Below, in pieces: positions 1 through 21,653 of a stretch of 45,449 nucleotides of DNA. The notes under the pieces are model-generated. The model saw only the letters and a list, made by a program, of their open reading frames with translations, searched no databases and was not told the DNA's origin. Numbering within the stretch: the stretch's first letter is position 1; every line of letters starts with the position of its first letter. Source of the DNA: a virus. Its lineage: Duplodnaviria > Caudoviricetes. The stretch is from positions 1 to 45,449 of IMG/VR virus record IMGVR_UViG_3300010047_000002, one strand, 5' to 3'. A program made the translations under genes and the position numbers.

Positions 1-123
1 GTTATCGTTCTGACCGGCGATGCGTTGGAACGTGCCGCCGGCCGCGTTGCACTTGAACCAAAAATCTATCGTCAGATCGCTGGTGCCGAGCGTAAAGTCG
101 GTGGTGTCCGGCACCGTCCACCA
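1..123. repeat. Terminal direct repeat, copy 1 (circular assembly overlap)
   Basis: Bases 1-123 (gttatcgttc...gtccacca) are identical to 45327-45449. The repeat lies inside a continuous ORF. Confidence 0.95.
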
Positions 124-3590: not shown

Positions 3591-4697
3591 TTAGGAGACG
3601 TTGCCGGCGGTGGCTTTAGAGCTCATCACAACGGTGCCAAAGTCGACGCTGTTGTAGACGCTCTTTTTCAGGCCCGAGATGCAGCCCGCCTTGACGCCTA
3701 ATTTGTTACCATAATCAAAGAGTTGCTCGAACCAATCATACGAGTTCTGATCATGGCCCTGACCGAACGCAGCGACCGCTGCTTGCGCGCCGCACAGCAC
3801 TGCGCGGCGTGCTGTCGTGACGGCGGCACCAGCGTTGGTGACGCCCTGCGTGACACGATAGCTTTCGTGAAGGATGCAGCCATTATACGTGCCCAACGCG
3901 CCCGTGAAGATCGGATTTTGCTGGCTGCCATTGCCCTGCAAAAATGATTTTTGCAGATCGTACCAAGTCACCTGCGCGGTAGCTGTCACAGGCCAGGCGC
4001 GCAGCGATGTGGTCTGATACGGGTGAATAAAAACCACGTACCATTTTTCACCATCGACCAGCAGCGGCCGGATCGGCGGCGAACCCGTCTTCGCCATTTC
4101 CACTGCCTTATCGATCAAGGTCAGCGTGAACACGTCGGTGACGCCGGTTGCAGCGTTGATCGTGCCATCGTCCGTGTTCGTACCAGGACGGACAATCCTG
4201 GCGTTGGCGGTGCCGCTACCGGTCGCGGCAGAGACCGTATTGTGGCCGGTATAGCGGGTATCCGTCTGCACCGTGTAGCCGCAGACTTGGTTGAAAAACC
4301 ATTGATCCCAGCGGTCGGCCCACCAATCCGAGAGCCCCATCATCGCTTCCTCGCGGATGCTGAATGGGATTCTCTGCTCCGTCATTTTTCCTTCGCTGCG
4401 GACTGCGTGGCGGAGCTGGTTGATGATCAAATCGTCGGTGAAAGTGGTCAACGATTCTTCGTTGCCCTCTTGCACACCGTCGCCTTGAGTACCAGCACCA
4501 GTGAGCTGGTAGCGCAGCGTGACGCGGACCCTGTCGCCTGGTCCCTTACTCGTCTCGGGCTTGATCTGCACGAGACTGTCGGAGCCAGGGCCCATGAAAT
4601 TTTTGATATAGCACTTCCGCAAAGCCTCCCTGGCCAGCTTGCGCGACCAGAGTTTCACGGCTTCTACGGCATTCACGCCATATGCTGTGTCTGCCAT
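3591..4697 (-). CDS. Major capsid protein (N4-gp56/DUF4043 type), 368 aa
   Basis: VKLWSRKL, KGPGDRV, EGNEESL, INQLRHAV, NPIFTGALG, CGAQA and FDYGNKLG motifs; downstream of scaffold. Confidence 0.92.
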   Translation of the reverse strand: MADTAYGVNAVEAVKLWSRKLAREALRKCYIKNFMGPGSDSLVQIKPETSKGPGDRVRVTLRYQLTGAGTQGDGVQEGNEESLTTFTDDLIINQLRHAVRSEGKMTEQRIPFSIREEAMMGLSDWWADRWDQWFFNQVCGYTVQTDTRYTGHNTVSAATGSGTANARIVRPGTNTDDGTINAATGVTDVFTLTLIDKAVEMAKTGSPPIRPLLVDGEKWYVVFIHPYQTTSLRAWPVTATAQVTWYDLQKSFLQGNGSQQNPIFTGALGTYNGCILHESYRVTQGVTNAGAAVTTARRAVLCGAQAAVAAFGQGHDQNSYDWFEQLFDYGNKLGVKAGCISGLKKSVYNSVDFGTVVMSSKATAGNVS

Positions 4698-5276: not shown

Positions 5277-6323
5277 CTATAGCTTGCCCGCGCGTTTCAT
5301 TCGTTCCCACTGCTTATCGAACTCATCGGGGTCCTCGGCCCAGAGGTCCGAGAGATCCGAGATCGTCATGTCGTTGGCGGTCTTGCGCCCCTCGCCGCCC
5401 GAGATCGTCATCGACGCGCGCTGGCCGCGCTTGGCGGCCTCGATCTTGCCGTTGGCTCCGTTGACCTTCGGCGCGGCTGGCGTGACGTAACCCCTGGTCT
5501 TCGCCGCCTCGTAGTAGAGCGCGGCCGGCGCCACGCCGAGCTGGAAGGCGCGCTGCGCGATGCCGGCGGCGTCGGCCTGCAGGATCGCGGCGCGCATATG
5601 CGCCGGGCTCGGGAAGCCCTGCTGGTGCGCCTCCTGCTGCGCGAGCTGGGAATTGTCGGGATAGAGGTGCTGGAGCTCGCCCATGCGGTGCGCCTTGAGA
5701 TGCTCGCAGGCCGCGTCGTAGTCGCTGATTTTCTGGCCATTGATCTCGACCACGGGCGAGGTCTTGCGGAACTCATTCTCACTCGCCCGGATGTGGTCCC
5801 AGAACACCTGCTCCTGATGTTGTTGCTGCAAGTGCTGCTGCGTTGCCGCCGCGCCCCGGTGCGTCTCGGCCAGCGCGCGCTCCAGCATGGCGGTGCGCGC
5901 CTGGAAGTGACCGATGGGGTCCTCGTTCACATCCGGGATCTTCGGCTCGTCCTGTGGTGGCGGCGCAGCCGGCCGGCGCGATGCCCTGAGATCCTCGATG
6001 AGCTTGTTGACCGCCTGCAGGCTTTCCTCGGCGCGGCGGGCTCGCTCGCGCTCATAGGTGAAGGCGCCCTGCGCGTTGCGGTAATTGCTCTCTAGCTGCT
6101 CGTAGGAGAGCTTCGGTTTGTCGGTCGGTTGTTCAGGGTCACCCTCGCCAGGCGATGGCTGAGCTTCAGTGCGTGCGCCTTTGTCTTGAGGCGCCGCCTC
6201 CCCTTCTTCGCCTTCGCCATCTTCGCCGAGCTCCTTGGCCAGGTCGGCCCATTGCTTACTATCGTCCGGCAATAGGGGTTCGGTCCCCGGCGCCTCAGGC
6301 GCCGTGGTTGCTTTGTCTGCCAT
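5277..6323 (-). CDS. Probable capsid scaffolding protein, 348 aa
   Basis: Acidic disordered N-terminus, coiled coils and a basic/aromatic C-terminal end; lies between portal and MCP. Confidence 0.7.
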   Translation of the reverse strand: MADKATTAPEAPGTEPLLPDDSKQWADLAKELGEDGEGEEGEAAPQDKGARTEAQPSPGEGDPEQPTDKPKLSYEQLESNYRNAQGAFTYERERARRAEESLQAVNKLIEDLRASRRPAAPPPQDEPKIPDVNEDPIGHFQARTAMLERALAETHRGAAATQQHLQQQHQEQVFWDHIRASENEFRKTSPVVEINGQKISDYDAACEHLKAHRMGELQHLYPDNSQLAQQEAHQQGFPSPAHMRAAILQADAAGIAQRAFQLGVAPAALYYEAAKTRGYVTPAAPKVNGANGKIEAAKRGQRASMTISGGEGRKTANDMTISDLSDLWAEDPDEFDKQWERMKRAGKL

Positions 6324-10366: not shown

Positions 10367-10372
10367 TTGTCC

Positions 10373-10813
10373 TTAGAACCCCGGCGGAAGGATCGGCGGG
10401 TCGAGCAACATCGACTGATTGGTGTTGGCGCGGTTAGGCCGGAAGTAGTCGCCCATCGGCATGGGCCCGTAGCGCGGCATCGGATTGCCCGGGATCTCCA
10501 TGCCGCGCTCCAGCGGCGGGTAGGGCATGTCCATCACTGCATTGGGACCGCCGGCAAGATCGCGTGCTGTGGCTTGCCTGAAGTCGCCCATGCGGAGATT
10601 GCCGCCGCCCCGCATGCCACCCATGAATGGAAACCTCGCGCCCGGCATCGCCGACATTGCCAGGGGTATCCCCTGCCTTACAAATTGCTGAAACAACGAT
10701 GGCGGTGGCCCCGGCGGCGGCTGAGCCGGCGCAAACTGATAGGGATTGGCAGGGTTGGCGTTGAGGCGGTTGCGGAGGTTCGCCATGTAGTCCGCCATCG
10801 TCAGGTCGGCCAT
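10373..10813 (-). CDS. Hypothetical Pro/Met-rich protein, 146 aa
   Basis: Tightly packed in the minus-strand operon; low complexity. Confidence 0.6.
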   Translation of the reverse strand: MADLTMADYMANLRNRLNANPANPYQFAPAQPPPGPPPSLFQQFVRQGIPLAMSAMPGARFPFMGGMRGGGNLRMGDFRQATARDLAGGPNAVMDMPYPPLERGMEIPGNPMPRYGPMPMGDYFRPNRANTNQSMLLDPPILPPGF

Positions 10814-10814
10814 G

Positions 10815-12350
10815 TCATTGTTCCACGTACGTGCCGGGGAGCTGCGTCGCGGCGGCGCCGAGGGCGCCGGCAGCGCCGAGCGGCGCGGCGAACGAGCTCC
10901 AATCGTAGATCTTGCCCTTCATGAACAGCGCCAGCGCGCGCTCCGGCGAGATCCCCCATCGTGGCGCGACATTCTCCACGATGTGCTTGGCGAGGAGCTC
11001 TAACTTCGGAGCGCCGAGCGGGGTATCGACGCCGGTCTGCGGCCCGTACATCGCCCACTCGATGGGTTGCCCCATGCGCGGCGTCAGCCCTTGTGGTCCG
11101 TACACGTTTTCACGCAGCCAGGGCCCGAGATCCTGCACCTCGGCCATCGATGCGTCGGCCTTGCGTCCCTTGCTCTCGGGCAGGCCACCGCGCGTCATGT
11201 GCAGCCCGAGCTGGCGCGCCTTGTGGCTATCGAAGACGTTGAACTCATCGAACATGCCGAGGCCTGGGACGCGCGGCACGCCAAAGGCGCGGATGTAGGA
11301 GGCGACCTTCGGGTTGTCGGAGAGATGCCCGTAGGGATCACCCAGCCACTTGAAGACCGGCGACACCTGGGCGCCGTGATAGGAGTGGCCGGGGATGCCG
11401 GTGACGTTCTCGCCGGGGATGTTCGTCATTTCCTCGCCGGAGCCGCCGAACCTCTTGAAAATCTCCGCGCCTCGCTCGGGACCGTGCTTGGCCATCAGGT
11501 AGTTCAGCAGACCGCCGCGCGCGAGCTCCTCCGGCACGGGATTGCCGGCCGACATCGGTGATGTGGCGAAGTTCCAGCGCCGGAAGAGCGGCATGGCCGA
11601 GGCCGGGCCCGACTCCTCGATCATCTTCGACAGCAGCGGGCGCGAGACGTACCAGCCTGCCATGCCGCGCCAGAGGTCCGGCATATTCCGGCGCACGTAC
11701 TCGAGCGCCTCCTGCATGCGCTCGGCGTTGGCCGGCGTCATCACCCCGCGCGCCGTCTCCGAGCCGCGCGGGTTTTTCGCCATCGCCAGGAAGCTCTTGG
11801 CGGCGATATCGCCCGTCTCCTTGCCGGCAATGTCGGCGAGCTCCTCGCGCGAGGTGCCGCCGAACAACCGGCTGAGCGCGGGGTCCTCTTTCGAGATCAG
11901 CGGCCTGACATCTTCGGCGAGCTGCTGCGGCGTTTTCCAGACCCCGGGGAAGATGTCCTCGTCCTTGCGTGCGCCCGTCAGGAAATCGCGCGCGCGGCGC
12001 ACGCCGGGAATGTTCTTGCGTCCGCCGGCCATGCCGGCGATGCCGACTGCGCCCTCGCCCAGCGCCTCGCCGTAGTCGCCTTGGCGCAGGAGGTCATACA
12101 ACGATGCCCCGAGCGCCCCCATGCCGTAGCCGGCGGCCGGCAGCATCGCAATGGGTGGCGCGGTGCCGAGCTCGGCGAGCGGACCCGCGACCGGATCGTT
12201 AGGCCTGGGCGGCAGGTTGCGCACCTCGTGGCGCGGCGGTGGGGTGAACCGGTAGGGGTCGTAGGGGCCCTGCAGCCAGCGCGGCGCCATGCCCGCGACG
12301 ATATCCGCTGTGGTGATATCGCCGTCGAACATGCCCATAATTGCGAACAT
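10815..12350 (-). CDS. Hypothetical 511-aa protein with a possible HhH/EndoIII-like motif
   Basis: Long ORF in the operon; WY...SAGN...PKVASY...DSHKARQLG...QPIEW pattern. Start uncertain (12350 or 12338). Confidence 0.7.
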   Translation of the reverse strand: MFAIMGMFDGDITTADIVAGMAPRWLQGPYDPYRFTPPPRHEVRNLPPRPNDPVAGPLAELGTAPPIAMLPAAGYGMGALGASLYDLLRQGDYGEALGEGAVGIAGMAGGRKNIPGVRRARDFLTGARKDEDIFPGVWKTPQQLAEDVRPLISKEDPALSRLFGGTSREELADIAGKETGDIAAKSFLAMAKNPRGSETARGVMTPANAERMQEALEYVRRNMPDLWRGMAGWYVSRPLLSKMIEESGPASAMPLFRRWNFATSPMSAGNPVPEELARGGLLNYLMAKHGPERGAEIFKRFGGSGEEMTNIPGENVTGIPGHSYHGAQVSPVFKWLGDPYGHLSDNPKVASYIRAFGVPRVPGLGMFDEFNVFDSHKARQLGLHMTRGGLPESKGRKADASMAEVQDLGPWLRENVYGPQGLTPRMGQPIEWAMYGPQTGVDTPLGAPKLELLAKHIVENVAPRWGISPERALALFMKGKIYDWSSFAAPLGAAGALGAAATQLPGTYVEQ

Positions 12351-12419
12351 CTCCGGAACAAAAGGCCAAACGTCGTCGAGCTCGGCGCCGCCGATCGTGC
12401 CCAGGCTGGACGGGCTCGC

Positions 12420-12851
12420 TCAGAATTGCTGGTCGAACTGCAGTTGCGGCGTCCAGTAGCGCGGCTGCACGCCCTGGCGGAGCTCGCGGCCGGTGTTGCC
12501 GGCACCGCCGATATCGACGCCCACGCGCGGGCGGCCTTGATTCTGCTGCAGAAACCGCATGAACGGGTTAGGCTGCGCCTGGCGGGGCTGCGGTGGCAGT
12601 TCCGGCAGCGGGTCCATGAAGTAGCCGGCCGGCGACATGGGTGCGCGCAGGCCCGCCATCGGCACCCGCGAATAGTCGGGCACATAGCCGGGCGTGGGCG
12701 CGTACCGCTGCCGCAGAAATTGAAGCCCCTGCTTGCCCTGCTCTGCCTCTTGCGCTCTCACGTCGGCGTTGGGCGGGGGATAGAGCGCCTCAACGCCCCA
12801 GCGCACCGTTGGGTCGAGATCCCAGTAGGGGACGGCGGGATTGCCAGGCAT
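12420..12851 (-). CDS. Hypothetical Pro/Gln-rich protein, 143 aa
   Basis: Starts 5 nt after the upstream stop. Confidence 0.6.
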   Translation of the reverse strand: MPGNPAVPYWDLDPTVRWGVEALYPPPNADVRAQEAEQGKQGLQFLRQRYAPTPGYVPDYSRVPMAGLRAPMSPAGYFMDPLPELPPQPRQAQPNPFMRFLQQNQGRPRVGVDIGGAGNTGRELRQGVQPRYWTPQLQFDQQF

Positions 12852-12856
12852 TTCTA

Positions 12857-13117
12857 TTAACCTGGGTGGACCCAGTTGCGGTTTTTATTCCACTCCGCAA
12901 GCTCCTCCAGCATGGCGTTCATGGTGTTCTCGTCGACAATGCCGGTCGGCTTGATTTTGTTGAACCAACCGCCGCGATGCATGACTTGGAACTGGCGAAT
13001 GGCCTCCTGCGTCTGATCACCCATCACGCCATCGATTGTCAGATCGCTGCGCTGGATCAGCGCCAGCGACGCCTGCACAAACCGAATCTCGCGCTCGTTC
13101 ATGCCTAGTTCCATCAT
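12857..13117 (-). CDS. Stand-alone peptidoglycan-binding domain protein, 86 aa
   Basis: VQASL...IDGVMGDQTQEAIRQFQ...PTG motif; ATGA overlap with the endolysin stop. Confidence 0.8.
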   Translation of the reverse strand: MMELGMNEREIRFVQASLALIQRSDLTIDGVMGDQTQEAIRQFQVMHRGGWFNKIKPTGIVDENTMNAMLEELAEWNKNRNWVHPG

Positions 13118-14517
13118 GCTTCTCCTGGTTCTGGTCGCGCCTGGTTCCAGGCCATGACCTCACTGATGAGCTCGTCGACCGTCTCCTTGCTGGCGTAGCC
13201 GGTGACGGGGAGATCGTTATCGCGCTGATAAGACGTGATAGCGCCGTGCGTCATCGGCCCATATTCGCCGTCGACATCGAGACCGGCAGCATCAACCAGA
13301 TTGAGTGACGCCTGCACCCACATCAAATCGATGGCGCTTAGTTTCAGCGTTGGCCGTGGCGGCGGTGCCTGGGTGCCAGGCCACACCAGCGCAATCGCGT
13401 TGGCGGCCGGGAATGAGGCCACGTTGACCATATCGCTTTGATTACCGCCGCGACACTTATAGTTGCTGCCCTCGGTCGACTCGTACAGCGTCACATGATG
13501 CGAGCCGCTGTCCCAGCGGAACACAACGATGCAGCCGAGGCGCGGCTCATCGAGATGCACGCTATTCGGCCACCGTGACCAAGACTCGGCCCACATCCAC
13601 TTATCGGTGTCGGTCGGCCCGAACACCGGCTTGATGTCGGCCACCGACACACAGTAGGCGACGGTTACACCGCACCAAGCAGTGGCATCGGCTGTGTACT
13701 GATCACTGTAGGATTTTTGCTCTGGCCATTTGTCGCCGACATAGCGTGCCATGCCGATAATTTTGGGATTGTCAGCCGATCCGGGCGCCTCGGTCATGCC
13801 CGTGATCGAGCGCATGGCGGTGAGCCAAGCCGGCACGCCCGGGTCGGGCGGCGGCGTCGGTGGATCGGGTGGGGACGGCGGCGCGACGCCGGCCTGCGCC
13901 CAGGTTTGCTGCAGTTGTTGCGGCGTGCCCTCGTAGCTATTGATGTCGCAGCGGCCGATGCCGTTGATGGAGTGCGGCGAGGGCCCGACGTTGCCATCGG
14001 TGAACTGCCACAGCCAGGGCCCGCGTGGCCAGGTCGCCGGCGCCTCGGCCTCACTGCCGTATTGCGCCAGCCACAGGCGCGTGCCGGCCAAATACGAGTC
14101 GATGCGATTACCGAGCTGCTCTTTGATGACGTTGCCGGAGTAAAGCGCCGGGCGCTGCCCCGTCTGCTGCTCGACCAGGCGCAAAAACTCCTTCACATCT
14201 TGGACCGAACAGCCCTCGTCCTCGTGATCGAGCACCAGCAGGGTATCAGGGCCAGGCATGGCATTTTCGAGAAAATGGTCGACCTGGCGCTGCACGTTGC
14301 CCGGCCGAAAGAAGTGATATGCACCCCAAAGTAAACCGACAGCCTTGGCCTGGCGTCGCGACTCATCATACGTCGGATCGACGTAGTCGTCCGATTCGGT
14401 CGCCTTATAGATCACGCCCCAAATGCCATCCCTTTTGGCGGCGCCCCAATCGATCTCACTGCCGTCGTCGGTGTTGTGATGCGAAAGGTCCACCACATGC
14501 GGGAAGATTTCGGTCAT
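13114..14517 (-). CDS. Modular endolysin: GH25 muramidase, CHAP/NlpC-like (TIGR02594-type) domain, PG-binding domain
   Basis: VDLSHHN, KATE, GAYHF, LDHE, LWQFTD and DIN (GH25); Pro linker; AWCG...HHV...GGNQSD; VDGEYGPMT. Start placed at the ATGA overlap. Confidence 0.9.
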   Translation of the reverse strand: MTEIFPHVVDLSHHNTDDGSEIDWGAAKRDGIWGVIYKATESDDYVDPTYDESRRQAKAVGLLWGAYHFFRPGNVQRQVDHFLENAMPGPDTLLVLDHEDEGCSVQDVKEFLRLVEQQTGQRPALYSGNVIKEQLGNRIDSYLAGTRLWLAQYGSEAEAPATWPRGPWLWQFTDGNVGPSPHSINGIGRCDINSYEGTPQQLQQTWAQAGVAPPSPPDPPTPPPDPGVPAWLTAMRSITGMTEAPGSADNPKIIGMARYVGDKWPEQKSYSDQYTADATAWCGVTVAYCVSVADIKPVFGPTDTDKWMWAESWSRWPNSVHLDEPRLGCIVVFRWDSGSHHVTLYESTEGSNYKCRGGNQSDMVNVASFPAANAIALVWPGTQAPPPRPTLKLSAIDLMWVQASLNLVDAAGLDVDGEYGPMTHGAITSYQRDNDLPVTGYASKETVDELISEVMAWNQARPEPGEA

Positions 14518-14735
14518 TGCCAGTTTCCACACCAATCGTTGGGACCAACCTCAGGCCAAACGCGCCCGAGGAGTTGACCGCCGCCGCCCATCTGTACGTA
14601 CGGAGGGATGGCGCGGCAGCGCGTCTTGCCGTTTTCCGTGAAGTAGTACTGACAGGTCGAACACATCTCGCCGGCCGGCGGTGTCGCGCGCGGCGTCGGC
14701 TCCGCTTCTGCCGTCTTAGATTTTGTCGGCGTCAT
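14514..14735 (-). CDS. Small Cys-rich protein, 73 aa
   Basis: CxxC...C...PP...WPxV...DWCG pattern; stop overlaps the endolysin start. Confidence 0.7.
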   Translation of the reverse strand: MTPTKSKTAEAEPTPRATPPAGEMCSTCQYYFTENGKTRCRAIPPYVQMGGGGQLLGRVWPEVGPNDWCGNWQ

Positions 14736-14941
14736 CTCTGCGTGCCTTTTGAGTTGTCAATACAGTGTTACCCACCCTTGCAGGATCATGACGGTTGTGC
14801 CAACAGTACAAGTCTGCCCCTGTGGCGGAAGGCAGGGAAGCAGGCGCTGCGGCCGTTCATCCCCCTCGGCCGCCCCGCAGCCCGGGCGAGAGTGGCTGCC
14901 CCCGGTCGCTCTCGCCTCTCACATTGCGAGAGGCCAAAATC

Positions 14942-15190
14942 ATGATGAAATGTGATGTCTGCGGCGCCGAACGCGCCTCCGTCGACTGGCGTCAAGAGCA
15001 AGTGCCGGTCAAGCTCGGCGAAGACGTTGAAGTGACGATTTGTCCGACTGTACCGGTCGTATTCTGTGACGCTTGCGGTGAGGCCTACACGGACGAGCGC
15101 GGCTGTGACATTCGCGATGAGGCCGTGACCAAGCTCCGCATTGCCTACGAGGCGGGACGACTGAAAGGATTCATCCCGGAGGGCGTATGA
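14942..15190 (+). CDS. YgiT/MqsA-type zinc-finger protein lacking an HTH domain, ~82 aa
   Basis: MKCDVCG...VPVVFCDACGEAY; GAGAGG SD. Confidence 0.7.
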   Translation: MMKCDVCGAERASVDWRQEQVPVKLGEDVEVTICPTVPVVFCDACGEAYTDERGCDIRDEAVTKLRIAYEAGRLKGFIPEGV

Positions 15191-15429
15191 CCCTGACATT
15201 TTTCGAGCTCGCCAAGAGACTCGATGAAATTGTTGATATGCTGCGTATTGAGACCCATTCGCCTGCCGCGCTCGCGCTTGTGATTGATACTGAAGGCGGC
15301 GTGCATTTCACCGTCCAAGGCGACCTGGAGCTCATCACCGTGGCCGACGTGCCCGCCATCCTGGTGCGCGTGGCGCTGGCGGTGGCGGAGGATCTTCGCG
15401 AGAAGAAAACGCTGAGAGGCAAACACTGA
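15187..15429 (+). CDS. Hypothetical protein, 80 aa
   Basis: ATGA-coupled; similar to the next ORF. Confidence 0.65.
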   Translation: MTLTFFELAKRLDEIVDMLRIETHSPAALALVIDTEGGVHFTVQGDLELITVADVPAILVRVALAVAEDLREKKTLRGKH

Positions 15430-15647
15430 TGGCACGCGGCGGCGGCAGATACGGTGGCGTGGCCACGGAGGTCTTGCTGGAGACCCAGGCCGACGGCATC
15501 ATCATGATCGTTCTCAACGGCAACCTCGGCAGCGGCTTCTCCGTCGCGGTCGCCGAGGACATCGTCCTCAACGTGCCGAACGCCTTGCGGCGGCTCGCCG
15601 ACGAAATCGAGCAGGATCTCGTGCTCGGCGCCGACAGCGTGCAATGA
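15429..15647 (+). CDS. Hypothetical protein, 72 aa
   Basis: TGATG-coupled with a GAGAGG SD. Confidence 0.7.
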   Translation: MARGGGRYGGVATEVLLETQADGIIMIVLNGNLGSGFSVAVAEDIVLNVPNALRRLADEIEQDLVLGADSVQ

Positions 15648-15793
15648 GCATCCTGGATGCGCTCATGATCATCCTGGGCGTCGTTGCCGCTCTTGGCATG
15701 CTGTTCGCCGTTTTGGCGATGTTGGTGCTCGGCGTGCTCATCTACAAACACGGCAAAAAGGTCAAAGGGCGCGGTATGCGCGAGGTCCCATGA
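15644..15793 (+). CDS. Small membrane protein, 49 aa (not in ORF track)
   Basis: MSILDALMIILGVVAALGMLFAVLAMLVLGVLIYKHGKKVKGRGMREVP; ATGA overlaps at both ends. Confidence 0.7.
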   Translation: MSILDALMIILGVVAALGMLFAVLAMLVLGVLIYKHGKKVKGRGMREVP

Positions 15794-15984
15794 TCACGCT
15801 AACACTGCCGCCGACCATGATTGAAGAGTGCATTCGCTTTACACGGCTTACCCGTAACGTGACGCGGCGCGTGCTGCTACGTGAAACCCTTTCTGCCGAC
15901 GACAGACGCAGATTTGAGGCCGCACACAGCTCGGGTGCCGATTTTCTTGACGCCCTTCTCGCCTACAAACGGGACCAACTCTAA
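15790..15984 (+). CDS. Hypothetical protein, 64 aa
   Basis: ATGA-coupled with a GAGGT SD. Confidence 0.6.
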   Translation: MITLTLPPTMIEECIRFTRLTRNVTRRVLLRETLSADDRRRFEAAHSSGADFLDALLAYKRDQL

Positions 15985-16370
15985 TGGGTCGTGAACAACG
16001 CGCCAACGCCGAGCGCCGCGCGGAGATCCGCAGAATAGCCCAGGAGCTCACGGGACGCGCCGTCGATGACGGTCAGATCGTCATGCTCGGCTTCGTCACC
16101 ATGATCTCGATGGTTTTTCGCGACCAAGTGCACGAGGTGCCGAAAGAGCAACTCAACCAACTGCGCCTCGCCTTCTTTGCCGGCGCGCAACACCTGTTTG
16201 GCTCGATCACCAGCATGCTCGATCCTGACGCAGAGGCGAGCGAGCGCGATTTAAAGCGCATGACGCTGATCGCCCACGAGCTCAACGCCTTTATCGATGA
16301 GTGGAAGCAAATTCACGGCATCACCGATCCCGACGTTGGCTACCACGGGCCACCGGAGACCAAGCAGTGA
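15984..16370 (+). CDS. Hypothetical protein, 128 aa
   Basis: TAATG-coupled; LRLAFFAGAQHLF motif; abuts a convergent gene. Confidence 0.7.
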   Translation: MGREQRANAERRAEIRRIAQELTGRAVDDGQIVMLGFVTMISMVFRDQVHEVPKEQLNQLRLAFFAGAQHLFGSITSMLDPDAEASERDLKRMTLIAHELNAFIDEWKQIHGITDPDVGYHGPPETKQ

Positions 16371-16583
16371 TCAGGGCTTGCTCTCGTGCAGCACGCAGCG
16401 CTCGACCAGCGACTTAACCAGTTCGCTGCGATGTTGCTCGGCGGTGCTGATGTTGCTGAGCAGCACTTTCGCCGAGTAGAGCCCGCCCAGCAAAAACATG
16501 GCGTTGACGACGATCAGCGCCAGCGCGAGGGGTTGGCTCTTCAGCCCGTCGACCACATTGCTGGCGATTTCTTTGCCGTTCAT
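16371..16583 (-). CDS. Membrane protein, holin candidate, 70 aa
   Basis: One hydrophobic segment (PLALALIVVNAMFLLGGLY); ATGA-coupled; upstream of the endolysin. Confidence 0.5.
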   Translation of the reverse strand: MNGKEIASNVVDGLKSQPLALALIVVNAMFLLGGLYSAKVLLSNISTAEQHRSELVKSLVERCVLHESKP

Positions 16584-16876
16584 GGGCGTTTCGTCGGTAG
16601 TTTGCTTTCCACCATCGCGCACGGCTCCAGCACGGTGAGAAACTTGCCGTCGGCCAGATTGATAATGCAGTGCACATCCATGCTCAAGAGGCGTTTCGCC
16701 CGGTCCTTTTGCGGCGTGCGCAAGCCAACGATGTGGTTGGGATTGATCTGCACCAGCCCGCCGTCGAGCGTGTGCAGTTCCACCAGATCCATACCGCGTG
16801 CCTCATACCAGATGAGAAACACCATCAGCGCCGCCACCAGCACGATGAAGACGGCGCGCGCGATTAAGCCGCCCAT
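16580..16876 (-). CDS. Membrane-anchored/secreted protein, 98 aa (possibly lysis-associated)
   Basis: N-terminal hydrophobic segment AVFIVLVAALMVFLIWY; TGATG-coupled start at 16876. Confidence 0.65.
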   Translation of the reverse strand: MGGLIARAVFIVLVAALMVFLIWYEARGMDLVELHTLDGGLVQINPNHIVGLRTPQKDRAKRLLSMDVHCIINLADGKFLTVLEPCAMVESKLPTKRP

Positions 16877-17115
16877 CAAGCCTCGCCCATGAAGTTGCGT
16901 ATATACGTCTTGCGCAGCGCCTCGCGTGCAAGTTTGCGTGACCATAGGCGCACCGCCTCGTTGGCCTCCAGCGTATACAAATCCACCGCAACCTCGGGCG
17001 GCAACAGCGCCGGCAATACCTTGACCGGCATAATGTTGGCCACGCGCACAATCGCGGGCGCCGCCAAGAACCCAAACACCCCCGACAGAAAGCCGCGCCG
17101 GTCTAGGCTGCCCAC
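16876..17115 (-). CDS. Twin-arginine-signal protein carrying a copy of the MCP N-terminus, 79 aa
   Basis: GTG at 17115 with an AGGAG SD 6 nt upstream; LDRRGFL...LAAPAIVR; C-terminal EAVRLWSRKLAREALRKTYIRNFMG. Confidence 0.85.
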   Translation of the reverse strand: MGSLDRRGFLSGVFGFLAAPAIVRVANIMPVKVLPALLPPEVAVDLYTLEANEAVRLWSRKLAREALRKTYIRNFMGEA

Positions 17116-18611
17116 GCCGAGCTCCTGGTGGTGCGGCGTTTGTAGCGATCGACGGTGGGCGGGACAAATTCGGGCATGAACCCGCAGGCCCCGGTCATGT
17201 AGGCGTCGGCCCCATGGCTCGCCCAATTGTGCAGAGGCTCCGACTTGTACGTGCCGAGGCGCTCGTCCCAGACCTTGGTGTAGTTGTCGAGGCATCGCAC
17301 ACCTTGCGCGCAATTCGCCTCGTCGATCCAGCACATGGCTAACCAATTGCGCGCCGCCTCAATCGCGTCGGCCTTGTTTTGGATGCGGGGGACGACGATG
17401 AAACTGATGCCGAGGTTATATGCCACGTCCTTAATTTTCTCTCGCCCTGGTAATACCCAATGGGAGGCGTCCAGATCGTGAGGCCCGTAGTGTCTGCCGT
17501 AGTGCCATCCGTTAACATCAGCAAGGCGTCGGAGTTCGTTGACGTAGTGGGCGACGCCTTCACCGGTATCCTCCAGGTAGTAGATGAAATGGACCATCTG
17601 CCCGTGGCTCTGAAAAAACCAGACCGCGGTGTTATCGGATTTGCCGATATCCCAGCAGGTGTGCACGGGCCGGGTGATGTCGCAGGTGACGCGCCCGAGG
17701 CGCCGGTCCTCGCGCATCTTGGTCATCTGCGCGCGGAAGTAAGCACCCTCAAGCGAGATTTTAAACGCCTCTTCCGCCGTCGAGGGATACTCACGCCACA
17801 TATGATCAGGACCAATGGCGCGTTGTCGTGTGACGTACCAGGCCTTTTGCTCGGGCGTGAGATCGATGCCGTTTTTGGCCTTGAGGGTGGCGAAATACTC
17901 CTCAATCTCCTTTGAAAGCACGACCACAGCAGGGTCTTCGTTGTAGGTCTCGTGCTCCCACCAGGGCAGGAAAATCAGCCGAAACTGTTGGTCCGCAAGA
18001 GGTCGCCCGGCTTTGGCCGCAGCATCGGCGTCCTGCACGAGGTCGTAGAAATCGCCGGCCGCGCCTTCGGCTGTACTTTCAACGAAGACCAACGAACCCT
18101 TGTGCACAGTACCGAACGCCCCGGTCCGTATTTCCTTAGACCGCTGGGGAGCGGTGGCGGAAATTTTCCCCATCTCGGATACATGCAGTATCTGGAGCGT
18201 GCCACCGCGATGACTGGTTCCCACGTCGATGCGAGACCCGTTGCTCCACTCCAGAGATGTCGCATTGTCGCTCACCAATCTGCGGATCGATTTAATCTCG
18301 CGCGGGAGCTTCTCATAGGCAAAGCGCACCTTGTCCAGTTTTTTCGTGGCATCGGTCAGGGTCGCGTCGATCAAGCCGCAGTGGGTGTTCGAGTTGAAGA
18401 GGCAAGCATCGAGCATCAGGATTGCAATGAACGTGCTAATCCCACGCTGCCTGGCCTTCAGTACGAGGTTCCAGTAGTGCACCTGCGACCACAGCGCCCT
18501 TTGCGCTTGGTTGCGGGTGAAGATCACTTCCTGGCCGCGCTCGTCGACAATCGAGTAGAGGTTGTCGAGGCGCCATTCGCGGTCGGCAAAGTAGGCGACG
18601 TTGTCAGCCAT
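17103..18611 (-). CDS. terL: Terminase large subunit, 502 aa
   Basis: KARQRGIST (Walker A), LHVSE (Walker B), ESTAEG, WDIG and HGADA nuclease motifs. Confidence 0.95.
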   Translation of the reverse strand: MADNVAYFADREWRLDNLYSIVDERGQEVIFTRNQAQRALWSQVHYWNLVLKARQRGISTFIAILMLDACLFNSNTHCGLIDATLTDATKKLDKVRFAYEKLPREIKSIRRLVSDNATSLEWSNGSRIDVGTSHRGGTLQILHVSEMGKISATAPQRSKEIRTGAFGTVHKGSLVFVESTAEGAAGDFYDLVQDADAAAKAGRPLADQQFRLIFLPWWEHETYNEDPAVVVLSKEIEEYFATLKAKNGIDLTPEQKAWYVTRQRAIGPDHMWREYPSTAEEAFKISLEGAYFRAQMTKMREDRRLGRVTCDITRPVHTCWDIGKSDNTAVWFFQSHGQMVHFIYYLEDTGEGVAHYVNELRRLADVNGWHYGRHYGPHDLDASHWVLPGREKIKDVAYNLGISFIVVPRIQNKADAIEAARNWLAMCWIDEANCAQGVRCLDNYTKVWDERLGTYKSEPLHNWASHGADAYMTGACGFMPEFVPPTVDRYKRRTTRSSAWAA

Positions 18612-19066
18612 CAGTAGCCCCCGCGCCGATAACGCGCCTGGGCATCGGGTGGCCCGGTGTCGCCGGCAATGTCATCCCAGATGCTGCCGGCCTGCATGCC
18701 AGAGCTCATCCCAACCGGGATCGCGGGCAGCGCCTGCCTGAAGAGATACGAGAGCGGCAGCCCTACGCCATAGCGCGCGCCCATGTAGGCACCAGCGCCC
18801 ATACCACCTGCCAAAGCTAGCGGGGCCCCGGCACCAAGGCCTGCCGCCGAACGCGCCCGGCGCATGTTCTCTCTGGTCTGGCGATCAAACAGGTCCGCTT
18901 TTTCCGGCGAGATCACGCTGGGCGCGAGCTTGGCAACCTGCTTAGCCGCTAGACCCGACATTCCCAGCGGATTGGCAAAGCCAGACGCAGCGCCCGCGAA
19001 CTGCCGGCGCCACCAGGCACCGATGTCCTCCGGTTCTGGATTGGCGAGGTAGTCCTCATCGGCCAT
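18611..19066 (-). CDS. Hypothetical Gly/Ala-rich protein, 151 aa
   Basis: TGATG-coupled to terL. Confidence 0.65.
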   Translation of the reverse strand: MADEDYLANPEPEDIGAWWRRQFAGAASGFANPLGMSGLAAKQVAKLAPSVISPEKADLFDRQTRENMRRARSAAGLGAGAPLALAGGMGAGAYMGARYGVGLPLSYLFRQALPAIPVGMSSGMQAGSIWDDIAGDTGPPDAQARYRRGGY

Positions 19067-19312
19067 CGGGTTGCTGCTTCAAGAGTTGCTGGGAGAACAA
19101 AAAAAATTTTGCAGATTTGGCGGGGTGACCCCCCTGCCCATGCAAGTGCACCCCCCCCCCGGCCTCCGGACCCATGGGGGGTCGATTTCCTAGCAAAAAG
19201 CATGCTTTTTTGCCCATCCACTCCTGCTCAAAGGGATGGGCCAGACCAGCGCTATCAACGCCTTAGGTCGAGCTCGTCGGGTTCGGTGAACCCAGAATGG
19301 GTCGATTCACGC

Positions 19313-19717
19313 TCAAGTTGCGCCGCCATCTTCGCCCGGCTCTTCTCTGAGCGACGGCAGTCGCGTCATTTCATGCTCAATCACATGGCCATTGCCGTGA
19401 CCATTGCGCGCTGGGATCGAGCGGCTATCGCCATCGTGCTGCTGCAGCAAGCGCGAGAGCTCGGCGCTCACGCCAAACAGCATTTGCCCTTCGATCGGCT
19501 GTGAGGCTTTGCCGAGTATCCTGTCGAAACACTCACGAATGGCCGCAACGCGCGTCATTTCGTGCTTGGCGTATTTAGTCAAGCGCACGAGCTCATTGAC
19601 CATATCGGGCGCATGCAATGCCAATGCGGCCTTGATGTCCGCATTTGCCTTGCTGCGCGGGCTGCCTTTCTTGCGGCCCGCATTGGCTGGTCGAGGCTGG
19701 CCTTTGACGAACGGCAT
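19313..19717 (-). CDS. terS: Terminase small subunit, 134 aa
   Basis: MPFVKGQ...AGRKKGSP and DRILGKASQ motifs; upstream of terL. Confidence 0.75.
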   Translation of the reverse strand: MPFVKGQPRPANAGRKKGSPRSKANADIKAALALHAPDMVNELVRLTKYAKHEMTRVAAIRECFDRILGKASQPIEGQMLFGVSAELSRLLQQHDGDSRSIPARNGHGNGHVIEHEMTRLPSLREEPGEDGGAT

Positions 19718-19919
19718 TTACGTTATGACTGCATGTGACTTTAACGGGCAATCACGTGCAAAGCGCATGTTATGAGATGCCGGATTGGATCGATTATCAC
19801 GCCGTATACATGACCCCTCGCGCCTACCACCGAAAACGCGAGGACACGGGCTGGCTGGCATCGATCAATCCTTGGTTTGCTGGGATCTCCGGCGAAGCCC
19901 CTGGATAGCCGCCCATGCA

Positions 19920-20243
19920 CTACCTTTTCGAACCAGCCTTAATATCGTCGTGCTTCATTTCCGGCACTGGCTTAGGCTGAGCTGCTTGCTCCGGAGGTTT
20001 ATTGGCATCCTTAACGGCTTTGGATTTATCCTCCATCGCCTTTTCCTCGGCCTTGAAGTCGACAGGTGCCAGATCCATTGGCGAAAACTTATAGACCCCA
20101 CCGGCCGGCGCGCCTTCGAACGTGCAGGTGATGCCGCTATCGTCGATCTCCATGATGATCATCGGCACCTTGACGCGCTGCTCAGCCGGAACTGCAGCCT
20201 GGGGACGATGATGCACCCAATCACCTACGGCATAATCGGTCAT
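19920..20243 (-). CDS. Hypothetical protein with SH3/YodC-like N-terminus, 107 aa
   Basis: Start MTDYAVGDWV, 1 nt after the upstream stop, with a GAGG SD. Confidence 0.55.
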   Translation of the reverse strand: MTDYAVGDWVHHRPQAAVPAEQRVKVPMIIMEIDDSGITCTFEGAPAGGVYKFSPMDLAPVDFKAEEKAMEDKSKAVKDANKPPEQAAQPKPVPEMKHDDIKAGSKR

Positions 20244-20244
20244 T

Positions 20245-20448
20245 TCAGCCTCGCTTGTTGATAGGGGTGCCGCTAACGTAGGCGCCGCCGTAGCGATCGC
20301 CTTCCTTTTTTTGACGAATGCCACTGCCTTTGTCCGCTTCGTTGAATTCTTTGGCGACGCTTTGGGGGATGCCGGCTTTGGCGGCGAAGGCTTTGTCGTG
20401 CGCGGCGGCCGCCATGAAGCGCGCTTGCGCTGGACTTTTGGAGGGCAT
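20245..20448 (-). CDS. Small phage protein, 67 aa
   Basis: MPSKSPAQARFMAAAAHD...GIPQSVAKEF, a pattern recurrent in phage late regions. Confidence 0.75.
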   Translation of the reverse strand: MPSKSPAQARFMAAAAHDKAFAAKAGIPQSVAKEFNEADKGSGIRQKKEGDRYGGAYVSGTPINKRG

Positions 20449-20463
20449 GGCTTGGCCTTTGCT

Positions 20464-20658
20464 TTAATAGGTTTGCTTTTTGGGTTGCGACGCGGGCGCC
20501 GGACCATCGGGATCACTCCTGACGCCGCCCGAGCCGGCTTTTGAACCGTCCTGATACTGTTTGCCGCCCCGGTTCACATTGTCGTTCCCCGAGTACGTGT
20601 CCGACCTCGGGGCAATCGAGTCCTGTGTTTGGCTCGCGAAGCTGTCGTGCTTCGGCAT
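20464..20658 (-). CDS. Hypothetical protein, ~64 aa (frame ambiguous)
   Basis: Ends 15 nt before the next start; a competing frame 20746..20513 exists. Confidence 0.35.
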   Translation of the reverse strand: MPKHDSFASQTQDSIAPRSDTYSGNDNVNRGGKQYQDGSKAGSGGVRSDPDGPAPASQPKKQTY

Positions 20659-20831
20659 CTTCTGCGTTGACTTGTGCAGCGGCATCTGCGGCCTCCTTTG
20701 CTCGGCGCTCAGCCAGGATCTGGTCAAGGTTGTAGGTGCGCGGCATGGCCGGGCCCTTTTCGAACAGATTTTTACGGATGGAGTTTTCGAGTACATCCGG
20801 GGTGCCCCCACTGTCAATGGAGGAAATGCCC

Positions 20832-21047
20832 ATGATCGCCGCCTTGATAACCTTGGTGATCTACTTGCTGGTGATCGGCTTGGTCATCTGGCTGCTGACC
20901 TATCTGATCGATGCCATCCCAATCCCCGAGCCATTTCGCACGGTGGCGCGCACCGTCTTGATGGTTGTTGGCGTGCTGATCTGCATTGTGCTGTTGCTGC
21001 AGTTTGCCGGCGTGAGCGACGGAGGCTTGCCAAGGCTGACGCGTTAA
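20832..21047 (+). CDS. Two-TM membrane protein (Thivi_2564-like), 71 aa
   Basis: GGAGG SD; LVIYLLVIGLVIWLL...IPIPEPFRT...VLICIVLLL. Confidence 0.75.
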   Translation: MIAALITLVIYLLVIGLVIWLLTYLIDAIPIPEPFRTVARTVLMVVGVLICIVLLLQFAGVSDGGLPRLTR

Positions 21048-21147
21048 GCGTAAGCGGGGTCCCAGCTCCAAAGATGAGGGAGGTTTGGGCTGAGACCCCT
21101 GTTGCCAGCGCCGTCAGCGGGGAGCACAGGGCGCCGACAATTCGCAA

Positions 21148-21441
21148 TCATTCCTCGAACAGATCGAGGGTGTGCTTGCAGCGGTCTTGATCAGGCTCCT
21201 CCTCCGTAGCACTGCGCCGGGCGCAAAATGCCGTACAGGTTGGGCGCCCATCACCATCATATTTCCACTCCGGCGGATAATCTTTTTCGCCAATATTGAA
21301 CAGGACCGCATTTGTTAAGACCGCGCACGTCGTCTGATCCTCGGTGCAGTGATTGCAGAACCGTTCCATAAAAATCATGCCCTCCGTGCCATTGCTGGGA
21401 CGGTAGGGTTCGCCGGCACAGTCCGGATAATGCACGGGCAT
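21148..21441 (-). CDS. Cys-rich hypothetical protein, ~97 aa
   Basis: AGGAG SD; PSNGTEGMIFMERFCxxC motif. Confidence 0.7.
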   Translation of the reverse strand: MPVHYPDCAGEPYRPSNGTEGMIFMERFCNHCTEDQTTCAVLTNAVLFNIGEKDYPPEWKYDGDGRPTCTAFCARRSATEEEPDQDRCKHTLDLFEE

Positions 21442-21446
21442 CGAGA

Positions 21447-21653
21447 TCACTCCTGGGCTGGCGTTGACGCAACATCATCTTCATCACTTGCAAGCGGGTT
21501 CTCCCGGATAGTTTGGATGGCGATACGCGCGGCCTCGCGATAGTACTCGCCGAGGTGTTTCCAATCGTCATTCCACTGCGCCAGTTGGCTTTCATCCTGC
21601 ACTTGGTCATATGCGAATAGCGCTTTGGCAACCTTATCGACGAGCTCGCTCAT
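21447..21653 (-). CDS. Hypothetical protein, 68 aa
   Basis: GGAG SD; LVDKVAKAL...YREAARIAI. Confidence 0.65.
   Translation of the reverse strand: MSELVDKVAKALFAYDQVQDESQLAQWNDDWKHLGEYYREAARIAIQTIRENPLASDEDDVASTPAQE

What the first reader, a model, noticed from the sequence alone, without database searches (positions are those of the whole stretch)
16876..17115. Twin-arginine signal peptide fused to a conserved copy of the phage's own major capsid N-terminus: candidate capsid mimic/decoy
Seen: a 79-aa gene coupled behind terL begins MGSLDRRGFLSGVFGFLAAPAIVRVA and ends EAVRLWSRKLAREALRKTYIRNFMG (16885-16959). MCP residues 12-36 (4590-4664) read EAVKLWSRKLAREALRKCYIKNFMG. That is 22/25 identical, with two K>R changes and one C>T. 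Of the 20 identical residues with degenerate codons, 13 use a different codon (e.g. AGG/CGC, TTG/CTG, TCG/TCA), so this is not a fresh DNA duplication and the peptide looks maintained at protein level. Established: RRxFL is the Tat motif, Tat exports folded proteins and their bound partners, and some defence systems (CapRel, Lit) sense capsid protein. Inference: the protein may be a decoy that binds a capsid-sensing immune protein and sequesters it at or across the membrane, a membrane tether for procapsids, or an assembly inhibitor of related phages.
Basis: partly seen in the sequence, partly recalled or inferred. Interest (0 to 1): 0.92.

Follow-up and report, generated by a model that had tools for sequence, protein, structure and literature searches.

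The report
Export-tagged capsid-arm mimic in phages
A small optional phage gene joins a bacterial export-type leader to a conserved copy of the first helix of the phage's shell protein, a design shared by a very large family of phage genes that each copy a piece of their own shell type and likely act as decoys against host defences that sense shell proteins.

Summary
Observation confirmed: the 79-aa gene (16876-17115, minus) ends in a 22/25-identical copy of capsid residues 12-36, with saturated silent sites (pS 0.83, pN 0.18). The copy is the capsid N-arm helix. It tracks the phage's capsid clade, not its exact allele: 24/26 to two relatives, 22/26 to its own.
The gene is one member of a large family (1,827 clusters at 90%; 6,071 at 50%, E<=0.001). 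Members share a leader resembling host periplasmic-binding-protein signals (RR present in 114/114 pattern hits) and carry variable tails. Of 251 tails, 57 match a phage protein and 52 of these are capsids, from nine PHROG families. In 38 genomes, 22/40 tails match their own genome (2 expected). Control small ORFs match their own capsid 3/8,138 times.
Tat export, translation and function are untested; no member reaches the TIGR01409 cutoff (0/30). Best reading: a decoy that binds a capsid-sensing host protein and removes or pins it at the Tat translocon (0.45). Main rival: titration of scaffold or assembly partners (0.25). No paper describing the family turned up in eight searches; this scan noted it before on at least 14 other genomes.

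The parts
16876..17115 (-). 79-aa leader + capsid-fragment gene (GTG start)
   Evidence: identical 240/240 nt in L001 and L043 (likely the same genome); full-length homologue P0004 at 67%
17023..17115 (-). Constant leader, residues 1-31: RRGFL, a 16-residue uncharged stretch (mean hydropathy 1.9), APAIVR, NIMPV; Tat-type by motif, no -3/-1 signal peptidase site by my rule
16978..17022 (-). Variable Pro-rich linker, residues 32-46
   Evidence: sequence; differs in P0004 and P0020
16885..16977 (-). Copy of the MCP N-arm, residues 47-77 (core 16885-16959); net charge +5 over the last 26 residues, as in the MCP
17122..17126 (-). Shine-Dalgarno-like AGGAG inside the terL 3' end
   Evidence: sequence; function inferred
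4590..4682 (-). Source-like segment: MCP residues 6-36, N-arm helices (model H11-28, H30-34)
   Evidence: colinear with GP4 MCP 8H89, whose N-arm is residues 2-47 (PMC9698820)
3591..4697 (-). Major capsid protein, PF13252 / phrog_334
17103..18611 (-). Terminase large subunit, overlapping the gene start by 13 nt
   Evidence: phrog_2, E 3e-25
5277..6323 (-). Likely scaffold protein with a conserved acidic C-terminal motif; candidate partner under rival 1
   Evidence: position between portal and MCP, conservation in relatives; no family hit, identity inferred

Best explanation
The gene joins a constant twin-arginine leader to a selected copy of the capsid N-arm helix, and its product likely works as a decoy that binds a host protein sensing capsid monomers and would carry it to, or through, the Tat translocon. 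Shown: the fusion, purifying selection on the copy, the N-arm identity of the copied stretch, the invariant RR leader with homology to host signal peptides, family-wide tracking of the cognate capsid family, and optional presence. Inferred: translation with the late packaging genes (coupled stop/start), TatC recognition, and binding of a short-motif capsid sensor. Also inferred: small partners would be co-exported, large ones held at the membrane, and export of the free peptide would spare the phage's own assembly. This member lacks an obvious peptidase site, so it would stay membrane-anchored.
For: pS 0.83 vs pN 0.18 for this gene; pooled 0.71 vs 0.34 over 24 tail-target segments, none above 67% nucleotide identity. 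57/251 tails hit a phage protein at E<=0.01 and 52 are MCP, though MCP is 1.4% of database residues; shuffled tails 1 and 0. Fresh set: 12/55 hit, 10 MCP. Targets span nine MCP PHROG families, portals and a tail collar, the classes that pattern-recognition systems sense (PMC13581612 passages; Lit and CapRel detect short MCP motifs). 22/40 tails hit their own genome vs 2.0 expected; 19 of 20 targets are MCP or MCP homologues, one is a portal. Only 3/8,138 other small ORFs hit their own MCP, and one is a missed leader gene. No true out-of-frame copies (2/200, both antisense mirrors). RR in 114/114 hits of an RR-free pattern, background 20%. 9 of 11 best cellular matches are solute-binding proteins. 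Gene optional: 0 of 79 other terL loci. Tat exports pre-assembled complexes up to about 135 kDa (PMC10267130 section 6). Precedent for competitive blocking of a sensor: DSAD1 (PMC11087589 passages).
Against: No sensor or binding partner is identified, and the host is unknown. 0/30 members reach TIGR01409 and this ORF has no TAT hit in NCBIfam or Pfam. A faithful trigger peptide could activate rather than block a sensor. Avs7 wraps the whole HK97 fold, so a 30-residue piece cannot mimic that target, and complexes of IgG size were expected to exceed Tat capacity. 35 of 52 MCP hits lie in the first fifth of the MCP, which in P22 is the scaffold-binding N-arm; that fits rival 1 equally. 194/251 tails and 18/40 whole-genome cases have no detected source. 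The strongly conserved S-x-M-P-V after the hydrophobic stretch is not explained by export.
Confidence: 0.45

Rival explanations
1. Assembly modulator: the N-arm copy binds scaffold (or another head-assembly partner) and titrates or removes it through the leader, tuning the phage's own head assembly or poisoning that of co-infecting relatives.
For: The N-arm and the start of the spine helix are scaffold contacts in P22 (bioRxiv 2022.12.13.520362 passages). Tails of G012 and G045 join an internal segment (about 126-148) to the N-terminal segment. The tail is basic (+5) and the candidate scaffold C-terminus is acidic and conserved. The tail is closer to relatives' MCPs than to its own. The gene is in the packaging operon; 24/35 members lie on the MCP strand.
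Against: Tails also copy C-terminal strands, portal and tail-collar pieces. The own genome ranks first for 17/40 tails, so a phage would mostly target itself. The relative-vs-own gap here is two residues. The gene is dispensable.
Confidence: 0.25
2. Membrane tether: the leader docks at TatC or in the membrane without transport, and the tail nucleates or holds procapsids on the cytoplasmic face.
For: No -3/-1 peptidase site in this member; 76/251 lack both candidate sites. Late-operon position.
Against: 175/251 have a compatible site by the same rule. Small unstructured Tat substrates are tolerated by Tat (PMC13673990 passages), which would put the tail outside. An assembly tether would be expected in most relatives, but 0/79 other terL loci and 0/96 MCP loci (flanks up to 10 kb, shorter than the 12-kb distance here) carry one.
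Confidence: 0.1
3. The leader itself is the effector (it occupies TatC or a signal-peptide chaperone such as SlyD), and the capsid piece is only a stable carrier or a localisation handle.
For: The leader is far more conserved than any tail; many tails have no detected source; SlyD binds Tat signal peptides with help of the RR motif (PMC13673990 passage).
Against: It does not explain why tails follow the cognate capsid family in frame and under selection.
Confidence: 0.12
4. Trigger rather than decoy: a resident prophage uses the capsid epitope to prime or set off host defence against competing phages.
For: The window encodes an integrase; MCP motifs are known triggers.
Against: The gene is coupled to terL in a late operon, unlikely to be expressed in lysogeny (inference); the epitope is self-like.
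Confidence: 0.05
5. Neutral recombination debris of capsid genes.
For: Three quarters of tails have no detected source.
Against: Saturated silent sites with conserved residues, no recent high-identity copies among 24, no out-of-frame copies, and exclusive link to the leader.
Confidence: 0.03

Closest known systems
Twin-arginine (Tat) signal peptides of periplasmic solute-binding proteins (TIGR01409, PF10518)
   Same: N-terminal RR-x-F/L, 15-17 mostly uncharged residues, then a basic residue; the leader profile's best cellular matches are such proteins.
   Different: Phage-borne, below the curated cutoff, followed by a conserved S-x-M-P-V motif and a short virion-protein fragment in place of a folded enzyme or binding protein.
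PF13252 / phrog_334 major capsid protein N-arm (GP4 8H89, Pam1 7EEL)
   Same: Tail is 24/31 identical to the N-arm of the phage's MCP; model TM 0.72 to 8H89.
   Different: Only about 30 residues, in a separate gene, behind an export-type leader.
DSAD1, competitive inhibitor of the tail-tube sensor DSR2 (PMC11087589, passages)
   Same: Small phage protein that occupies a sensor's site for a virion protein; the logic of the best explanation.
   Different: The passages seen do not describe DSAD1 as a copied fragment of its trigger or as carrying an export leader; no inhibition is shown here.
Short-motif capsid sensors Lit and CapRel; fold sensor Avs7 (PMC13581612, passages)
   Same: They define the kind of target a capsid-fragment decoy would need.
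   Different: They are host proteins; no link to this family was tested, and Avs7 needs the whole fold.
Engineered Tat-antigen fusions and hitchhiker export (PMC10267130, section 6)
   Same: Tat leader plus short epitope that binds a cytoplasmic partner.
   Different: Laboratory constructs; this would be a natural phage counterpart.
SaPI capsid-size redirection proteins CpmA/CpmB (PMC5644958, search listing only)
   Same: Small proteins of a mobile element that interfere with head assembly; model for rival 1.
   Different: By the title they are competing scaffolds from a satellite, not capsid fragments, and no export leader is mentioned in what I saw.

Membership tests
Tat signal peptide | RR-x-F-L-type motif near the N-terminus | tested here: met
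   RRGFL at residues 6-10; RR in 114/114 hits of an RR-free DNA pattern, 108 at spacing 13-14, all with a start codon within 12 codons
Tat signal peptide | Moderately hydrophobic uncharged h-region followed by a basic residue | tested here: met
   16 residues, mean hydropathy 1.9; 240/251 have 15-17 residues; 26/251 contain a charge (set selected with an RR-containing pattern)
Tat signal peptide | Score above the curated TIGR01409 / PF10518 cutoff | tested here: not met
   0/30 reach 16.7 bits, 4/30 sub-threshold, this ORF none; no Pfam hit
Tat signal peptide | Signal peptidase I site | tested here: inconclusive
   Absent in this ORF by a simple -3/-1 rule (rule recalled); present at one of two sites in 175/251
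Tat signal peptide | TatC-dependent, RR-dependent export | not testable with these tools
   needs experiment
PF13252 major capsid protein | Full HK97 fold, about 370 aa | tested here: not met
   only the N-arm; phrog_334 positions 8-37 at E 0.42
Anti-defence decoy (DSAD1-like) | Binds a sensor and blocks activation | not testable with these tools
   no sensor known for this host
Anti-defence decoy (DSAD1-like) | Small, accessory, selected gene | tested here: met
Any curated protein family | Hit in Pfam, PHROGs or NCBIfam | tested here: not met
   nearest ESM Atlas clusters are unnamed; PADLOC was not searched

The most novel reading that the evidence does not exclude
Phages run a modular 'bind and deport' counter-defence: one constant Tat leader is fused to whichever epitope of their own capsid, portal or tail the host senses, so that the immune sensor is dragged to or across the inner membrane. 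The thousands of tails would then be a natural map of the virion epitopes that bacterial immunity recognises.
Probability: 0.35. Interest if true: 0.95.

Novelty: categorically new. Interest (0 to 1): 0.82.

Why it matters
The architecture itself is shown: thousands of sequence clusters with one export-type leader and, where traceable, a selected piece of the phage's own capsid type. If these are decoys, they are a new class of counter-defence that uses protein export, and each tail is ready-made bait for finding unknown capsid sensors. If they bind scaffold, they mark conserved assembly surfaces across nine capsid families. Either way the question of which short capsid epitopes matter inside an infected cell becomes directly testable.

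Tried and rejected
Complex prediction of candidate scaffold C-terminus with the tail: no verdict (score 0.02, mark 0.32); uninformative. A TatC-leader model was not obtained, so TatC recognition stays open. First MCP model from 14 sequences failed (pLDDT 35); redone with 82 (pLDDT 80.5). Sequencing runs: no RNA holder listed. The narrow re-lay lost the diverged variant seen, so no dN/dS between close variants; DNA for P0004 and P0020 was not obtained. Region search with residues 40-79 had one candidate, itself. PHROGs on whole small proteins was insensitive (best L035 to T4-like MCP, E 2e-13). Six tblastn searches of 50,697 phage records found MCP matches but no convincing leader gene; the low-complexity filter may hide it. 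GTDB pattern scan confirmed 1 of 154 stretches. No sigma-70 promoter in 13000-21500. ESM Atlas structure search blank. Rejected: fresh duplication (52/75 nt); split or frameshifted MCP (intact MCP 12 kb away); 'N-arm is simply the most conserved part' (window 12-36 ranks 131 of 344); essential assembly gene (absent from relatives). Host not determined: integrase best hit 35% in a Sulfitobacter plasmid, one member in a Hyphomicrobiales MAG. Literature searches without a description of this family: 0 papers; 0; 2 unrelated; only CC-licensed PMC and bioRxiv are covered, most hits were judged from listings, and no supplements were read.

Full report
Setting. The window is a whole phage genome: its first and last 123 bases are identical. 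It encodes an integrase, a P22-like portal (8081-10366), a PF13252/phrog_334 capsid protein (3591-4697) and a terminase large subunit (17103-18611). Identical stretches occur in soil metagenome runs. The host is unknown; weak hints point to Alphaproteobacteria.

The gene runs 17115 to 16876 from a GTG with AGGAG 6 nt upstream; the terL stop lies inside it and its own stop overlaps the next ATG. Residues 53-77 match MCP 12-36 at 22/25, with 13 silent codon differences among 20 degenerate identical residues and 52/75 identical bases. Over 26 codons pS is 0.83 and pN 0.18 (p 8e-7). The segment was picked for similarity, but a neutral copy with saturated silent sites would not keep 88% identity. 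Among 82 MCPs of the family the tail is closest to L003 and L404 (24/26); the phage's own MCP is equal 4th (22/26), the median is 14. So it follows the capsid clade, not the exact allele. P0004 (67% identical) and P0020 carry the same leader with the same MCP motif. A model from 82 sequences (pLDDT 80.5) puts helices at 11-28 and 30-34 and matches GP4 8H89 at TM 0.72, whose N-arm is residues 2-47 (PMC9698820, passages). The copy is the N-arm.

It is one member of a large family. A profile of ten first hits found 1,827 proteins among 8,000 scored and 6,071 clusters at 50% identity with E<=0.001, 190 at 1e-10; the weak end may include host signal peptides. All share a leader of about 30 residues; tails have a median of 64 residues. 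I pooled 251 distinct tails (144 from loci, 107 from proteins; P0108 dropped because my pattern missed it; they are not phylogenetically independent). Against 4,579 ORF segments, 51 hit at E<=0.01, versus 0-2 in five shuffles and 3 reversed. By PHROGs on the 25 targets, 43 tails hit MCPs of nine families, 3 portals, 2 a tail collar and 3 unnamed proteins. With a larger database 57 hit, 52 of them MCP, although MCP is 1.4% of residues; a fresh set gave 12/55, 10 MCP. Independent tblastn against annotated phages gave MCP or coat hits for the tails of the ORF, P0017, P0092 and P0075. About three quarters of tails have no detected source.

Tails follow their own genome. I fetched 37 of 50 carrier records whole, chosen mainly for length and completeness and after I had seen many tails. 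With the window, 40 leader genes were parsed; my pattern missed some that the profile found. At 26 bits (threshold set after viewing), 22/40 tails hit their own genome; 2.0 were expected from hit rates in the other genomes and three shuffles gave 0; the own genome ranked first for 17 and in the top three for 26. Of 20 targets, 17 are PHROG capsids, two are unannotated homologues of these and one is a portal. All 24 aligned segments have 45-67% nucleotide identity, pooled pS 0.71 and pN 0.34. Of 200 off-frame translations two hit, both the antisense mirror of an in-frame match. Of 8,138 other small ORFs (many spurious) in 31 genomes, three hit their own MCP, one being a missed leader gene, against 21/34 leader tails. 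Some tails join two fragments out of order, or capsid with portal.

The leader. A DNA pattern without RR gave 114 distinct hits; all have RR upstream and a start codon within 12 codons, against 20% background. In 401 genomes of the order of G051, 25 matched the profile; of the 11 best besides G051, nine are solute-binding proteins, one an oxidase with a weak TAT hit and one another small leader gene. Against this, no member of 30 reaches TIGR01409 and this ORF has no hit. It works like a Tat signal by anatomy, but I do not file it as a member. This ORF lacks a peptidase site by a simple recalled rule; 175/251 members have one.

The gene is optional. None of 79 other terL loci has a leader gene within 4 kb, and the closest (L325, 64%) goes on to the portal after one short ORF. 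A contig end in run X4 joins the terL end to sequence resembling the next gene, which suggests a relative without it (X4 and X5 look like one data set).

Mechanism. Three things need explaining: a constant export-type leader, a self-like virion fragment under selection, and dispensability. A capsid piece has no evident target outside the cytoplasm, so the simplest reading is that it binds something in the cytoplasm and the leader removes or pins the complex (inference). Tat moves pre-assembled complexes up to about 135 kDa (PMC10267130, passages and section 6) and tolerates small unstructured cargo (PMC13673990, passages). Capsid, portal and tail proteins are immune triggers; Lit and CapRel read short MCP motifs, while Avs7 needs the whole fold (PMC13581612, passages; PMC13728456, passages; TAC chaperone sensing, bioRxiv 2024.02.24.581848, abstract). 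DSAD1 shows that competing for a sensor's site works (PMC11087589, passages). I put the decoy reading at 0.45. [quoted passage not shown] Nothing here separates the two directly.

Novelty. No Pfam, PHROG or NCBIfam family covers the protein, and eight literature searches found no description (open-licence library only, no supplements read). This scan's index lists 14 earlier findings with the same words on other genomes, eight shown, none similar to this sequence and none in this genome; these are unchecked notes and are not counted as support. Verdict: real, selected and widespread architecture without a described counterpart; export, expression and function unproven. Interest 0.82.

Noticed in passing
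window 10366-17103: About 6.7 kb of accessory and lysis genes, some on the opposite strand, separate terL from the portal, whereas the closest terL relative L325 has them nearly adjacent.
   Followed up: partly
window 13114-14535 and 12857-13117 (minus): Modular endolysin (GH25, weak CHAP, peptidoglycan-binding domain) followed by a stand-alone peptidoglycan-binding protein.
   Followed up: no
window 16580-16876 and 16371-16622 (minus): Two small genes with one hydrophobic helix each, coupled behind the leader gene; the second is holin-like by eye only.
   Followed up: no
run X2 record 10 on window 16795-17083: A variant with 52 differing letters and six single-base insertions in the linker region (net two codons), likely a diverged in-frame copy of the gene in a related phage.
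   Followed up: partly
G037, G048, G001, G013, G005, G040, G042; L049, L068, L116, L155: Several genomes carry two to four leader genes, often adjacent, with different tails; in G037 two neighbours copy three separate parts of the same MCP.
   Followed up: partly
G012:22399-22674, G045:16342-16620, G013:5976-6290: Mosaic tails: an internal MCP segment placed before the N-terminal one, or an MCP piece joined to a portal piece.
   Followed up: partly
L112:1167-1472, L135:4591-4839, L151:9959-10282, L192:259-504: A tail subfamily with a shared cysteine motif (CxxC...C) and no detected virion source.
   Followed up: no
G015:26115-26552 (minus): A 145-aa ORF without the leader that weakly matches the N-terminus of its own MCP (33.9 bits).
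   Followed up: no
P0124: A 250-aa protein with two leader-like stretches.
   Followed up: no
L491:1297-1752: A small leader-type ORF in a cellular genome (G393), possibly a prophage and so a route to a cultured host.
   Followed up: partly
L035:8130-8444: The family also occurs with a T4-like capsid: tail matches phrog_138 at E 2e-13 and the MCP 3 kb away.
   Followed up: yes
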